From Candidatus Poribacteria bacterium (GTDB taxonomy: Bacteria; Poribacteria; WGA-4E; WGA-3G), in assembly GCA_965209095.1 (NCBI GenBank), contig OZ242381.1, forward strand, positions 5,198,667 to 5,262,666: a DNA stretch of 64,000 nt, read 5' to 3'. Shown here in pieces: positions 17,539 through 20,105 of this stretch (position 1 is its first letter; each line of letters starts with the position of its first letter). The notes under the pieces were generated by a model, which was given only the letters and a program-made list of their open reading frames with translations, searched no databases and was not told where the DNA came from. The position numbers and the translations under genes are program-made.

Positions 17539-18615
17539 TTATTCATCTTCTTCCGCTTCTAACTGTGCTTTCTGCCAACCATAATTTACATTGCCATCAT
17601 AAAACTTATCGGGATGTTCAACTGCCCATATCTGCTTATGTATAATCCAATTTTTCGGATCTAATGCCAGTGCCTTTCGCCATTCAGCCATCGCTTCCGT
17701 CTTTTTGCCTATCTCTAACAAGGTCCGACCGAGTTGAAACCGCGCATTTGCCTCAATGACATTTGGACTTTGCGATTTACTTGGCAGTTTAACACTGCTG
17801 AGTAATGTTGTGTTATAGGTAGGATCAGATACCCATTTCTCAAGCATTTCGGTTGTTTCTTTTTTAGCAACATTGATACTGAAAGGTGATTTGACCAACC
17901 GTCCTGCCTCGTCAATCATAACACCGTAGGGAATTGCCTTTAGGTTGAACAGATTTCCTAAAATGTTCCGTGAATCGACAAGCGTGACAAATTCCGCTTT
18001 GGCTTTGTCGTGCCATGGACGCACTACAGACGCACCTTGTGCATCTATAGCAATAGAAACAAGGTTTAGTCTATCACGATGTTTCGTATAAAATCTCTGC
18101 CATCCTGGCAGTTGTCCTCGACACCCTCACCATGAACCCCATATATAGAGAAACGTCTTCTTTCCACGAAAATCTTGCAAACGTTTTGGTGTATCGTCAA
18201 GATCGGATAATGTGAATTTAGGAGCAAGTTGTTCTGGTCTAACAATTTCTAATTCGGTATCGGAGGCACTGTATATTTCAAAACCGAACGGTTCAGCGAT
18301 GTCTTTAGGTTTAGCGTAAGTAACGTTATCAACCTTGAAAGCACTCTCACCCAATTGGAGTGGCACGCACAATTCCGATTCCCCACTACTACAGATGACG
18401 ACCATATCTTCCCCATCAGGTGTCTCAACCTTTAACCCTAACTGCTTGCAGAGCGTTTCTATCGGGATTAACCACGTACCATTTTTGAATATAGGAGATG
18501 TAGGAAATGTGACCAGTTTGCTATCAATTGAAACTTTGAGATTGCTAATAGGTGATGCGGACAAACCTGTTGCAATGGATAATATAACACAAGTAGTAAG
18601 TATGAACTTTGTCAT
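17539..18615 (-). CDS. Putative selenoprotein, 358 aa: signal peptide, copper-amine-oxidase-N-like domain, TlpA/Prx-like domain (WGSW-U-GC) and TPR
   Basis: ORFs 18127-18696 and 17539-18024 are in frame, separated only by TGA 18127-18129 at the redox-Cys position; downstream hairpin present. Confidence 0.85.
18097..18111 (-). promoter_or_regulatory. Putative bacterial SECIS hairpin
   Basis: CTGCCA-GGA-TGGCAG starting 15 nt after the UGA, with G in the apical loop. Confidence 0.7.
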
Positions 18616-18622
18616 GGTGTGT

Positions 18623-18661
18623 TTCTCTCCCGATGTTGTGCATCGTAAGTTAAGAATTTGA
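18623..18661. repeat. 39-bp direct repeat, copy 1
   Basis: TTCTCTCCCGATGTTGTGCATCGTAAGTTAAGAATTTGA, identical at 19727-19765. Confidence 0.95.
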
Positions 18662-18718
18662 CGTGCAATCTTTGTGCTTCGTTTTGATCGGTTCAATTTA
18701 TGCTAAACTGAACATTGA

Positions 18719-19599
18719 TTATTCGGATTCTTCGTTCAGGACTTGTATAAATTCATCAACGTTTTCTGCTTTAACCGCGGCACGTAATAACAACTCAAGT
18801 CGTTGTAACTCATCAATTGACTCAACCGATGTCTTAAAGGTTTGTGCTATGTCATTTCCAAATCGAAGTTCAAGGACTTCAAGGATTGACTTGCGAGTAC
18901 CTTGTTTGAATCCTTGTTCACGGGCAATTGGTGCCGCATATTCTGCGATTGAAGGTTGTTGCATGGTTTCCTCCAAAATAATATCAAATATTGTTTGTGA
19001 ATCAAAAGTTAAATTCCCTAAAATAGCAAGACTGCCGAGATATTCAATCTTGTTGGGAACATCAATACTGTCAGCGACTTGAACACACTTACGAAGCCAT
19101 TGTTCATCGCTTGTATCTGCATGATGTCTCATAAGCGGTGTAAAAGGTATCAAACCCACGATTCTTGATTCAAGTATTTCTTCTCCATCAAGATCAATTA
19201 ATCTGAAACTTGGTATTCAATTGAAATATTATGATGTTCAAGATTTTGCTCAAATCTACCTGGATCGTTCCTACCAGCATCAGGACGCAAGTATATCACA
19301 TTAGAATAAACGGGTAGACCATAGACTTCAATTGCTCTGATAATATAACCTGCCATCCTAAGTGGCATTTCTGGATCGTAACTATCATTGGTTTGAAATT
19401 CAAAATGGACGAGAACTTCTCTACCCTTGTGCAGCACCTTAATAAGTGAATCTGCCTGATGCATCTCTACCGTAGGTTGTTCAGGTGTAACAACCTCCAA
19501 TACGGTTATATCCGTGTCAGCAAATCTAAAACAAAGATGGACGAAATCTTGTGGATTAGTTTCAAGTTGTTTCTTAGAGGCAATATCAAAACTTGCCAT
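18719..19599 (-). pseudogene. Rpn/YhgA-like PD-(D/E)XK nuclease, frameshifted near 19205
   Basis: ADSLIKV...VHFEFQT...MPLRMAGY; one extra T restores EYQVFRLIDLDGEEILESRIVGLIPFTPLM. Confidence 0.8.
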
Positions 19600-19715
19600 T
19601 ACTCTCCTTCTTAATCTGTTTATGGTAAAACATTATGAATAATTATTTTTTGAGTTTATTCGTTGTAATCGGACAAATCATTGTGTATTTAATTGTCCGA
19701 ATGTGCATGGGACGA

Positions 19716-20105
19716 TCAATATGCACTTCTCTCCCGATGTTGTGCATCGTAAGTTAAGAATTTGATTATCTGTTCTGCAGTTTTTGGGGTGAGCCCTGAA
19801 CCCGGTTTTTGCATCATCTTCAGGACATATTTGCGCCATTCTTCAGCAGTAAAATTCGAATTAATTGGGCGTGCGACGGTATGGCATCTACTACATCTCC
19901 GAGTGAATACCGCGTAAAGCGTTTGCATCTCCTCTGGGTATTCTGAGACATCAATAAAGTTTGGTCCTTTGTCTGCAGGATATGTCTTAAGGACAGGACG
20001 TGGTGCACGTATGGCATAATACATACCTAAACCTATGTAAACCAAACCATAACCTATTAGAACTAAAATGATTATTACGACAATCCAAATAATAACTTGT
20101 TGCAC
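19716..20105 (-). CDS. Membrane-anchored monoheme c-type cytochrome
   Basis: N-terminal TM, CSRCH (CxxCH) and distal KMMQKPG Met ligand candidates. Confidence 0.8.
   Translation of the reverse strand: MQQVIIWIVVIIILVLIGYGLVYIGLGMYYAIRAPRPVLKTYPADKGPNFIDVSEYPEEMQTLYAVFTRRCSRCHTVARPINSNFTAEEWRKYVLKMMQKPGSGLTPKTAEQIIKFLTYDAQHRERSAY
19727..19765. repeat. 39-bp direct repeat, copy 2 (3' end of the cytochrome gene)
   Basis: Identical to 18623-18661. Confidence 0.95.

What the first reader, a model, noticed from the sequence alone, without database searches (positions are those of the whole stretch)
17539..18615. Hidden secreted multidomain selenoprotein (UxC) with SECIS
Seen: two ORFs share a frame and are split by one TGA, reading FLYIWGSW-[TGA]-GCRGQLPGW. 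A perfect CTGCCA-GGA-TGGCAG hairpin starts 15 nt downstream. Known: this is the first-Cys position of TlpA/Prx-like WxxWC motifs, and UGC-type Prx-like selenoproteins are described. Inference: a 358-aa exported protein with Sec at codon 163. The signal peptide + copper-amine-oxidase-N-like + Sec-thioredoxin + TPR architecture looks unusual and is missed by standard gene callers.
Basis: partly seen in the sequence, partly recalled or inferred. Interest (0 to 1): 0.8.

Follow-up and report, generated by a model that had tools for sequence, protein, structure and literature searches.

The report
Exported UGC-type thioredoxin-like selenoprotein gene
The two reading frames split by one TGA are a single real selenocysteine-containing, exported thiol-disulfide oxidoreductase gene of a sponge-symbiont (Poribacteria) genome, and it belongs to a selenoprotein family that is already catalogued, so it is a sound but not surprising find.

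Summary
A minus-strand gene (18615 to 17539) has one in-frame TGA (18129-18127, codon 163) in W-G-S-W-U-G-C-R, and a 6-bp hairpin with a GGA loop starts 15 nt downstream.

It is a genuine Sec codon:
- TGA sits at the same column in 42 of 42 and 80 of 80 related loci.
- dN/dS is 0.08-0.19 on both sides of it.
- The outermost stem pair covaries, C-G to U-A, through synonymous Leu/Gln changes.
- Full-length Cys homologues carry C-x-C.
- The genome holds selA, selB, selD and tRNA-Sec.

The protein has four parts: a signal peptide, an N-terminal beta domain with a conserved Cys pair, a TlpA/ResA-like thioredoxin fold, and a TPR-like C-terminus.

It is a divergent relative of NCBIfam NF041054 'WAxxUGC_long' (151 bits, cut-off 300). 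The 'UGC-containing Prx-like/TlpA' selenoproteins have been in print since 2008. The domain layout is therefore the family's own and not new.

One point is new. In close Poribacteria the gene overlaps (ATGA) an upstream small CxxCH membrane protein. In this window a 1.1-kb insertion flanked by 39-nt repeats separates the two genes. The function of that link is unproven.

The parts
17539..18615 (-). Whole coding sequence of the selenoprotein: 358 residues plus the TAA stop, with one UGA read as Sec.
   Evidence: Orthologues of 62-84% identity span the whole length. dN/dS is 0.19, 0.09 and 0.08 for the three segments.
18127..18129 (-). UGA = selenocysteine codon 163, in the motif W-G-S-W-U-G-C-R.
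   Evidence: TGA stands at this column in 42 of 42 loci and 80 of 80 loci. Cys stands at this column in full-length homologues P0011, P0048 and others.
18097..18111 (-). SECIS-like hairpin with a 6-bp stem (5 bp in many relatives) and a GGA loop. It starts 15 nt after the UGA and is built from the codons for L-P-G-W-Q.
   Evidence: 95.5% of cells are paired. Pair 19-33 is CG in 38 rows and UA in 3. RNAalifold recovers 5 of the 6 pairs. The loop starts with G in all 42 and all 80 loci.
18556..18615 (-). Signal peptide, about residues 1-20 (MTK, a hydrophobic core, then LSA|SP).
   Evidence: Read from the sequence. pLDDT is below 50 for residues 1-23. Distant orthologues L063 and L064 have an L-A-A-C lipobox-like start. 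No signal-peptide program was available.
18241..18537 (-). N-terminal beta-rich domain (residues 27-125) with the invariant Cys pair C75/C83. It gives a marginal Cu_amine_oxidN1 match.
   Evidence: Pfam 24.6 bits against a cut-off of 24.2. Invariant C75 and C83 in A2. Confident model. NF041054 covers this domain in relatives.
17878..18231 (-). TlpA/ResA-like thioredoxin-fold domain (residues 129-246) with active site U163-G-C165 and the invariant proline P229, which I take to be the fold's cis-proline.
   Evidence: PDB sequence matches to Etrx, ResA and StoA. Foldseek TM 0.78-0.85 to 3kcm, 4nmu and ResA.
17542..17766 (-). TPR-like helical C-terminus (residues 284-358) with the strongly conserved motif N-W-I-I-[HR]-K-Q-I-W-A-x-E-x-P-x-x-F-Y-x-G-x-x-D-x-x-W-Q.
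   Evidence: Pfam TPR_2 at residues 289-322. Invariant columns N322 to Q351. The motif is kept even in homologues without redox Cys.
19716..20105 (-). Small single-pass membrane protein with CSRCH, a probable monohaem c-type cytochrome. It is the ancestral upstream, overlapping neighbour of the selenoprotein gene.
   Evidence: It lies directly upstream on the same strand in 54 of 80 loci. The ATGA overlap was read in L074. It gives weak matches to SorB and QH-amine dehydrogenase haem domains. The top Foldseek rows are cytochromes c, with best E 0.56.
18623..18661 (.). Proximal copy of a perfect 39-nt direct repeat. It is a duplicate of the 3' end of the CxxCH gene and carries the selenoprotein's ribosome-binding region.
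19727..19765 (.). Distal copy of the 39-nt direct repeat, inside the 3' end of the CxxCH gene. The two copies flank a 1,065-bp insert (repeat spacing 1,104 bp) holding ORFs 18719-19159 and 19198-19599.
   Evidence: The insert junction is also present in contigs of runs X5 and X6.

Best explanation
This is one gene for an exported thioredoxin-fold selenoprotein of the 'UGC-containing TlpA/Prx-like' kind.

Shown:
- The UGA at codon 163 is conserved and lies inside a frame under purifying selection on both sides.
- It is followed by a conserved hairpin that covaries.
- It stands at the position of the first Cys of the CxxC of ResA/TlpA-type proteins.
- The genome has the full Sec insertion machinery.

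Inferred:
- SelB with Sec-tRNA(Sec) binds the hairpin 15 nt downstream, so the ribosome inserts Sec.
- The protein is exported by its signal peptide.
- U163, at the start of the active-site helix, attacks a substrate disulfide (or an oxidised thiol).
- C165 resolves the intermediate as a U163-C165 selenenylsulfide.
- A DsbD/CcdA-type membrane reductase, which the genome has, re-reduces that bond.
- The N-terminal Cys-pair domain and the TPR-like C-terminal motif bind a partner or substrate.

Tentative: in the Poribacteria family of this genome the partner or client is the small membrane-anchored CxxCH protein. In the other close Poribacteria examined, that protein's gene lies directly upstream and often overlaps the selenoprotein gene (ATGA).
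For: Recoding:
- TGA stands at the same column in 30 of 30 genus loci, 42 of 42 loci up to phylum level and 80 of 80 named loci. The named loci include Armatimonadia, Dehalococcoidia/SAR202 and Phycisphaeraceae. Many genomes are shared between these sets.
- Median dN/dS against 28-29 orthologues (pairs with usable dS) is 0.186 for residues 1-162 and 0.076 for residue 198 to the end. It is 0.089 for the 34 codons between the TGA and the first possible internal start. There is no other in-frame stop.
- Hairpin: 95.5% of 246 cells are paired and 0 of 500 shuffles reach that value. The outer pair is CG in 38 rows and UA in 3, with no mismatch. Further U-A cases are L126, L133, L137 and L153. U-G cases are L131, L146 and L147. 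C-A never occurs.
- Leu is CTG in 39 of 42 loci and Gln is CAG in 39 of 42. These codons make up only 13% and 38% of Leu and Gln codons in the window's long ORFs.
- The Sec machinery is present. SelD itself has U in ...CAGUASK....
- TGA is an ordinary stop elsewhere. It ends 3 of 28 long ORFs in the window and ends the neighbouring CxxCH gene.
- Cys homologues carry C-x-C at the column: P0011 and P0048 CGC, P0045 CTC, P0047 CQC, P0052 CRC, P0055 CSC, P0061 CYC, P0075 CHC, P0086 CIC, P0097 CEC.

Family and fold:
- NF041054 WAxxUGC_long, E 4.5e-44.
- PDB alignments place U163 on the first Cys and C165 on the second Cys of CGPC, with a one-residue gap.
- The model has pLDDT 86.9. Foldseek gives TM 0.78-0.85 to ResA/TlpA-like chains.
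- A DsbD_TM protein (169.5 bits) and three Cytochrom_C_asm proteins are in the genome.

Partner:
- The CxxCH gene lies directly upstream in 54 of 80 loci.
- By my start-codon heuristic, 29 of the 54 have a 4-nt overlap. The overlap was read directly in L074.
Against: - No direct evidence of selenium in the protein, and no RNA run was listed.
- Only one stem pair covaries. For the count of covarying pairs, 109 of 500 shuffles do as well. The stem is made of codons for a conserved peptide, L-P-G-W-Q, so part of its conservation is protein-level.
- The single-sequence fold is unremarkable, z = -1.42.
- Rfam has no match.
- The closing A-U pair is broken in 11 of 41 distinct rows.
- U-x-C is not the CxxC of characterised ResA/TlpA proteins, so the catalytic cycle is an analogy.
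- Homologues with S-x-S or D-x-S at the site keep the C-terminal motif. The family's core role may therefore not be redox.

Against the cytochrome link:
- The CxxCH protein is found in 59 of 61 genomes of the order. That includes families that gave no full-length hit to the selenoprotein.
- Two genomes of the genus, G006 and G008, have the CxxCH protein but gave no full-length selenoprotein hit. G008 keeps only a remnant of about 45 codons, and the downstream sequence is full of stops.
- Relatives outside the family lack a CxxCH neighbour in 33 of 35 loci examined. The exceptions are a short opposite-strand ORF in L063 and an adjacent ORF in L147.
- The haem-protein assignment itself is weak. 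It falls below the Pfam and NCBIfam cut-offs, and the best Foldseek E is 0.56.
Confidence: 0.85

Rival explanations
1. The gene is a real selenoprotein, but it acts as a peroxidase (Prx- or GPx-like). Sec163 would be the peroxidatic residue that reduces peroxides in the cell envelope. The neighbouring cytochrome, or DsbD, would supply electrons.
For: The best Pfam match is AhpC-TSA, E 6.6e-13. The literature files the family as 'Prx-like (UGC-containing)' (PMC2398784 Table 2; PMC9312934). Sec is typical of peroxide-reducing enzymes (general knowledge).
Against: - The PxxxTxxC/U signature quoted for Prx (PMC13188914 passage) is absent. The sequence reads I-W-G-S-W-U.
- The best solved-structure and NCBIfam relatives are ResA, StoA, TlpA and Etrx reductases. 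Thiol peroxidase reaches only E 8.7e-4.
- TlpA-like proteins routinely hit the AhpC-TSA model (my knowledge, not tested here).
Confidence: 0.1
2. The TGA is a true stop. The locus would be two genes, or a gene broken by a nonsense mutation or an assembly error.
For: Standard gene callers split it. Library proteins end at residue 162 or start at residues 165-200. An internal GTG at 18024 could start a 161-residue product.
Against: - The TGA is kept at one column in 42 of 42 and 80 of 80 loci across several phyla.
- The 34 codons between the TGA and the GTG have dN/dS 0.089.
- A split would cut the thioredoxin fold at its active site.
- Contigs X1 and X5 from two studies carry the identical codon.
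Confidence: 0.02
3. The UGA is read through without selenium, for example by near-cognate Trp or Cys tRNA or by a genome-wide TGA sense reassignment.
For: One homologue has Trp at the column (P0059, W-V-C) and several have Asp or Ser. The position therefore tolerates other residues in some lineages.
Against: - TGA ends ordinary genes here.
- The complete selA/selB/selD/tRNA-Sec set is present, and SelD is itself a selenoprotein.
- A conserved, covarying hairpin sits downstream at a distance suitable for SelB. The distance rule is recalled, not looked up.
- The usual Sec/Cys pairing with homologues is seen.
Confidence: 0.02

Closest known systems
NCBIfam NF041054 'WAxxUGC_long', ResA-like WAxxUGC motif-containing protein
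   Same: Both have the W-[AG]-x-x-U-G-C motif. The three-part layout is shared: N-terminal Cys-pair domain, TlpA-like domain and helical C-terminus with N-W-x-x-[RK]-Q-x-W. The model aligns in two stretches, positions 29-210 and about 232-332. It covers positions 6-332 in relatives.
   Different: The score is 151.2 bits against the 300-bit equivalog cut-off. None of 176 phylum genomes reaches the cut-off. Of the 7 library homologues and 3 read-through relatives scanned, only P0097, a Cys form, reaches it, at 300.3 bits. The Poribacteria proteins are therefore a divergent sister group and not an equivalog member.
[quoted passage not shown]
   Same: Same Pfam or CDD assignment (pfam00578, cd02966), same UGC motif and one Sec. 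PMC2398784 Table 2 lists 46 Sec sequences and 855 Cys homologues in GOS (passages). See also PMC9312934 and PMC13188914 (passages and tables).
   Different: The passages I read list only a domain, a motif and an example accession. I saw no statement on the N-terminal domain, the C-terminal motif, the SECIS or gene neighbours. Supplements could not be read, so I cannot say whether Poribacteria sequences are already among their examples.
ResA / CcmG / TlpA / Etrx extracytoplasmic thioredoxin-like reductases
   Same: Same fold, with Foldseek TM 0.78-0.85. Same W-x-x-W-C context and the same conserved Pro after the motif. Both are exported. The genome has a DsbD-type reductase and haem-attachment proteins.
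   Different: The active site is U-G-C, one residue shorter than CxxC, and has Sec as the first residue. There are two extra domains. No experimental substrate is known.
CXC redox motifs, e.g. the CGC of MauE
   Same: A C-[GA]-C pair serves as a redox-active site in the bacterial envelope (bioRxiv 10.64898/2026.03.05.709764, passages).
   Different: MauE is an unrelated membrane protein, and its motif lies in a loop, not in a thioredoxin fold. This is a chemical precedent only.

Membership tests
Bacterial selenoprotein (UGA recoded by SelB/SECIS) | In-frame UGA conserved among orthologues, with coding constraint downstream | tested here: met
   TGA in 42 of 42 and 80 of 80 loci. dN/dS is 0.089 and 0.076 downstream.
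Bacterial selenoprotein (UGA recoded by SelB/SECIS) | Cys-containing homologues aligned at the Sec column | tested here: met
   P0011, P0048, P0045, P0047, P0052, P0055, P0061, P0075, P0086 and P0097 have C-x-C.
Bacterial selenoprotein (UGA recoded by SelB/SECIS) | Stem-loop just 3' of the UGA with G in the apical loop | tested here: met
   The hairpin lies at +15 nt. The loop starts with G in 42 of 42 and 80 of 80 loci. One pair covaries. The numerical bSECIS limits are recalled, and bSECISearch was not available.
Bacterial selenoprotein (UGA recoded by SelB/SECIS) | selA, selB, selC and selD in the genome | tested here: met
   610, 358.8, 78.1 and 370.1 bits, all over their cut-offs. ARAGORN calls tRNA-SeC with anticodon TCA.
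Bacterial selenoprotein (UGA recoded by SelB/SECIS) | Selenium shown in the polypeptide | not testable with these tools
   Needs 75Se labelling or mass spectrometry.
NCBIfam NF041054 WAxxUGC_long (equivalog) | Score at or above the curated 300-bit cut-off | tested here: not met
   151.2 bits.
NCBIfam NF041054 WAxxUGC_long (equivalog) | W-A/G-x-x-U-G-C motif and long three-domain layout | tested here: met
   WGSWUGC. Model positions 29-210 and 232-332 are matched.
TlpA/ResA-like thioredoxin fold (cd02966) | Thioredoxin fold of the TlpA/ResA type | tested here: met
   Foldseek TM 0.78-0.85, E about 1e-10 to 1e-11.
TlpA/ResA-like thioredoxin fold (cd02966) | CxxC active site | tested here: not met
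   The site is U-G-C. HMMER alignments need a one-residue gap against CGPC and CKPC.
Peroxiredoxin (AhpC/TSA, PF00578) | Pfam score over the gathering cut-off | tested here: met
   49.1 bits against 26.
Peroxiredoxin (AhpC/TSA, PF00578) | PxxxTxxC/U peroxidatic motif | tested here: not met
   The sequence before U163 is Y-I-W-G-S-W. The motif is as quoted in PMC13188914.
Cu_amine_oxidN1 (PF07833) | Pfam score over the gathering cut-off | tested here: met
   24.6 bits against 24.2, marginal. The fold of this domain alone was not searched.
c-type cytochrome (the upstream neighbour, 19716-20105) | CxxCH haem-binding motif, invariant among orthologues | tested here: met
   C71, C74 and H75 are invariant in 25 sequences.
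c-type cytochrome (the upstream neighbour, 19716-20105) | Family model or fold match at a significant level | tested here: inconclusive
   Pfam Dehyd-heme_bind scores 21.1 bits, below its 25.2 cut-off. NCBIfam SorB gives E 0.0016. The top Foldseek rows are cytochromes cz, c6 and SorB, but the best E is 0.56.

The most novel reading that the evidence does not exclude
In Poribacteria the Sec-containing TlpA-like protein and the small membrane-anchored CxxCH protein form a dedicated periplasmic redox pair, built as a translationally coupled operon. The selenoprotein might keep that cytochrome's haem-binding cysteines reduced. Alternatively it might draw electrons from, or pass them to, the cytochrome for selenium-based disulfide or peroxide chemistry in the sponge host environment. 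The U-x-C site, one residue shorter than any characterised thioredoxin-fold active site, would then define a distinct catalytic class. Its Cys (C-x-C) and non-redox (S-x-S) relatives would share the conserved C-terminal binding motif.
Probability: 0.2. Interest if true: 0.55.

Novelty: new member of a known kind. Interest (0 to 1): 0.35.

Why it matters
- It adds a well-supported exported selenoprotein to the annotation of Poribacteria and of several other, mostly marine, uncultured lineages. Automatic gene calling splits this gene in two.
- The curated NCBI model for the family does not reach these sequences (151 of the 300 bits required). They will therefore stay mis-annotated unless the model or its cut-off is revised.
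- The comparison gives a clean natural example of a minimal bacterial SECIS built entirely from the codons of a conserved peptide. Synonymous covariation is visible in it.
- The U-x-C / C-x-C active site in a thioredoxin fold and the overlapping cytochrome-like gene give concrete, testable leads to a function for a family that has been only a table entry since 2008.

Tried and rejected
- Rfam gave only a chance-level sRNA row and no SECIS family.
- No RNA holder was listed among the sequencing runs, so expression was not assessed.
- Read laying printed only part of its difference table. I can state the TGA only for X1 and X5, which show no differences. I cannot state it for the 95%-identical contigs of X6 and X7.
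- The literature search for 'WAxxUGC' found 0 papers. 'Poribacteria' with 'selenocysteine' found 3 papers, none on this protein by title or abstract.
- Gene neighbourhoods in Dehalococcoidia, Armatimonadia and Phycisphaeraceae relatives showed no recurrent neighbour by eye, and the high-GC ORF lists were noisy.
- A TGA reported inside CxxCH homologues of another family turned out to be their normal stop codon, not Sec. I read this in one genome, G049.
- P0002, the only long 'near' hit at 61% identity, is a frame-shifted translation across the TGA region and says nothing about the column.
- I thought the two ORFs in the insertion looked like a nuclease/transposase family. Pfam and NCBIfam gave no hit, so I do not name them.
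Distances between the Cys pair, the C-terminal motif and the active site could not be measured.

Full report
**Observation.** The minus strand holds an ATG at 18615 and a frame that runs to a TAA at 17541-17539. It has one internal stop, a TGA at 18129-18127 (codon 163), in ...FLYIWGSW-U-GCRGQLPGWQ.... The hairpin CUGCCA-GGA-UGGCAG occupies 18111-18097 and starts 15 nt after the TGA. On its own the local fold is not unusual: z = -1.42, and 19 of 200 shuffles fold as well. Pfam finds AhpC-TSA/Redoxin at residues 129-243, a marginal Cu_amine_oxidN1 at residues 30-97 (24.6 bits against 24.2) and one TPR at residues 289-322.

**Is the TGA decoded?** The window's genome is a single 5.44-Mb contig. 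It encodes selD (370 bits), selB (358.8 bits), selA (610.3 bits) and a tRNA-Sec (78.1 bits, anticodon TCA) lying just downstream of selB. All are above their curated cut-offs. SelD is itself a selenoprotein, with U in ...CAGUASK....

- In 61 related genomes, 31 full-length matches of 62-100% identity lie in 30 genomes (own genome included), and each holds exactly one TGA.
- In extracted loci the TGA sits at the same column in 30 of 30 genus loci, 42 of 42 loci up to phylum level and 80 of 80 loci from the named collection. These sets share many genomes.
- In the phylum scan, 106 of 176 genomes have a match at E <= 1e-20. All but two weaker, paralogue-like rows carry one TGA.
- Median dN/dS of the window gene against 28-29 genus orthologues (pairs with usable dS) is 0.186 before the TGA and 0.076 in the remainder. 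It is 0.089 for the 34 codons between the TGA and the first possible internal start. Synonymous divergence is near 1.
- TGA is a normal stop elsewhere. It ends 3 of 28 long ORFs in the window and ends the neighbouring gene.
- Contigs of runs X1 and X5, from two samples in two studies, cover the codon without any difference.

**The hairpin.** In the 42-sequence alignment A1 the stem (columns 19-24 with 28-33) is paired in 95.5% of 246 cells. No shuffle of 500 reaches that value or the covariation score. RNAalifold independently returns 5 of the 6 pairs.

- The outermost pair is C-G in 38 distinct rows and U-A in 3. It changes through simultaneous synonymous changes, Leu CTG to TTG and Gln CAG to CAA.
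- The wider set adds four more U-A cases and three U-G cases, and never C-A.
- A Pro-to-Ser replacement turns a C-G pair into U-G in 14 rows.
- The loop starts with G in every locus.
- Leu is CTG in 39 of 42 loci and Gln is CAG in 39 of 42. Those codons account for 13% and 38% of Leu and Gln codons in the window's long ORFs.

There are caveats. Only one pair covaries. The count-of-pairs measure is not exceptional, since 109 of 500 shuffles reach it. The closing A-U pair is lost in 11 of 41 rows. The stem is made of codons for a conserved peptide. Rfam has no match. The bSECIS distance and loop rules I compare it with are recalled, not looked up.

**What the protein is.** NCBIfam's best hit is NF041054 'WAxxUGC_long, ResA-like WAxxUGC motif-containing protein', with E 4.5e-44 and 151.2 bits against a cut-off of 300. 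ResA, StoA and TlpA follow. HMMER alignments to solved Etrx and ResA proteins put U163 on the first Cys and C165 on the second Cys of CGPC or CKPC, with a one-residue gap.

An AlphaFold2 model built from 27 sequences has pLDDT 86.9 and pTM 0.82. Its best Foldseek matches are TlpA/ResA-like chains, with TM 0.78-0.85. Four things are invariant across 27 sequences from genus to phylum:
- a Cys pair in the N-terminal domain (C75, C83);
- W159, S161, W162, U163, C165 and R166;
- the proline P229, which I take to be the fold's cis-proline;
- a striking C-terminal motif running from N322 to Q351.

NF041054 aligns over the N-terminal domain, the thioredoxin domain and the C-terminus in relatives (positions 6-332). 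The multidomain layout is therefore the family's own.

**Homologues in protein libraries.** The exhaustive search returned many fragments that end at residue 162 or begin at residues 165-200. That is the signature of a split selenoprotein. It also returned full-length proteins that cross the column. Of the 25 I fetched, ten have C-x-C. Others have C-x-S, S-x-C, S-x-S, D-x-S, D-S-C or W-V-C. Two are the fragments just described, and one is a frame-shifted product. The non-redox forms keep the C-terminal motif, which argues that this motif carries a function of its own.

**Taxonomy and literature.** Named relatives are mostly Candidatus Poribacteria MAGs. Shorter or more distant forms occur in Armatimonadia, SAR202/Dehalococcoidia and Phycisphaeraceae.

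- 'Prx-like (UGC-containing)' selenoproteins are listed in the GOS study with 46 Sec sequences (PMC2398784, passages).
- They appear again as 'UGC-containing Prx-like protein' (PMC9312934, passages).
- I saw no description of domains, SECIS or neighbours there, and supplements were closed.
- 'WAxxUGC' occurs in no searched paper.

**Gene context.** In 54 of 80 loci, which are the close Poribacteria, a 122-residue protein is encoded directly upstream on the same strand. It has one membrane helix and an invariant CSRCH.

- In 29 of the 54, by my start-codon heuristic, its stop overlaps the selenoprotein's start as ATGA. I read this directly in L074.
- In this window the homologue lies at 19716-20105.
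- A perfect 39-nt direct repeat (18623-18661 and 19727-19765) flanks a 1,065-bp insert with two ORFs.
- The repeat duplicates the 3' end of the CxxCH gene, so the selenoprotein keeps its ribosome-binding region.

The CxxCH protein resembles c-type cytochromes only weakly. The genome has a DsbD_TM protein and three Cytochrom_C_asm proteins. No ResB was found with that model.

Several results weaken a strict functional link:
- The CxxCH protein occurs in 59 of 61 genomes of the order. That includes families that gave no full-length hit to the selenoprotein.
- It persists in G006 and G008, two genomes of the genus that gave no full-length selenoprotein hit. In G008 only a remnant of about 45 codons remains.
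- Relatives outside the family lack such a neighbour in 33 of 35 loci.

**Mechanism, with status.**
- Shown: a conserved, selected UGA at the nucleophilic-Cys position of a TlpA/ResA fold, a conserved covarying hairpin, the Sec machinery and Cys homologues.
- Inferred: SelB-dependent Sec insertion, Sec-pathway export, attack by U163 with resolution by C165 as a selenenylsulfide, and recycling by the DsbD-type protein.
- Tentative (about 0.2): the overlapping CxxCH protein is the client or redox partner.

**Verdict.** The feature is a real, mis-called selenoprotein gene. It is a divergent member of an already catalogued family, so it files as a new member of a known kind and its interest is moderate to low. 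The cytochrome-like operon partner and the unusually short U-x-C site are the parts worth an experiment.

Noticed in passing
window 18623-18661 and 19727-19765, with the insert 18662-19726: A perfect 39-nt direct repeat flanks a 1,065-bp insert. The insert separates two genes that overlap (ATGA) in many of the other close Poribacteria examined. It holds two ORFs (18719-19159 and 19198-19599) that form one 293-residue ORF in L075, where the cassette lies upstream of the CxxCH gene instead. Contigs of X6 and X7 have an extra A behind 19205, so the split may be a frameshift in this strain. Pfam and NCBIfam gave no hit.
   Followed up: partly
L031 (G000:C1 about 5009569-5010246, outside the window): A second candidate exported selenoprotein in the same genome. 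It is a 226-codon open frame with one TGA in ...FFATSTUSVCKAQ... (a Prx-like UxxC motif) and a lipobox-like start (F-M-A-C).
   Followed up: partly
L001 (G000:C1:5105707-5106633): The genome's selenophosphate synthetase SelD is itself a selenoprotein, with TGA in ...KCAGUASKLAPGE...
   Followed up: yes
L003/L013 (G000:C1:4889097-4891135): The tRNA-Sec gene lies about 50 nt downstream of selB on the same strand.
   Followed up: no
window 19716-20105 and homologues in 59 of 61 genomes of the order: A small single-pass membrane protein with invariant CSRCH and K-M-M-[RK]-K-P-G-S-G-L is conserved order-wide at 48-84% identity. It matches no curated family above its cut-off. It may be an uncharacterised monohaem cytochrome.
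   Followed up: partly
proteins P0025, P0032, P0033, P0100, P0132, P0134, P0149: Relatives of the family have S-x-S or D-x-S in place of U/C-x-C, yet keep the C-terminal N-x-x-I-[RK]-x-Q-x-W...P-x-x-F-Y motif. This suggests a conserved non-redox role for that motif.
   Followed up: no
G034:C5:1756190-1757260 and 1759912-1760982: One genome of the genus carries two tandem copies of the CxxCH-selenoprotein pair about 3.7 kb apart. Both copies have the TGA.
   Followed up: no
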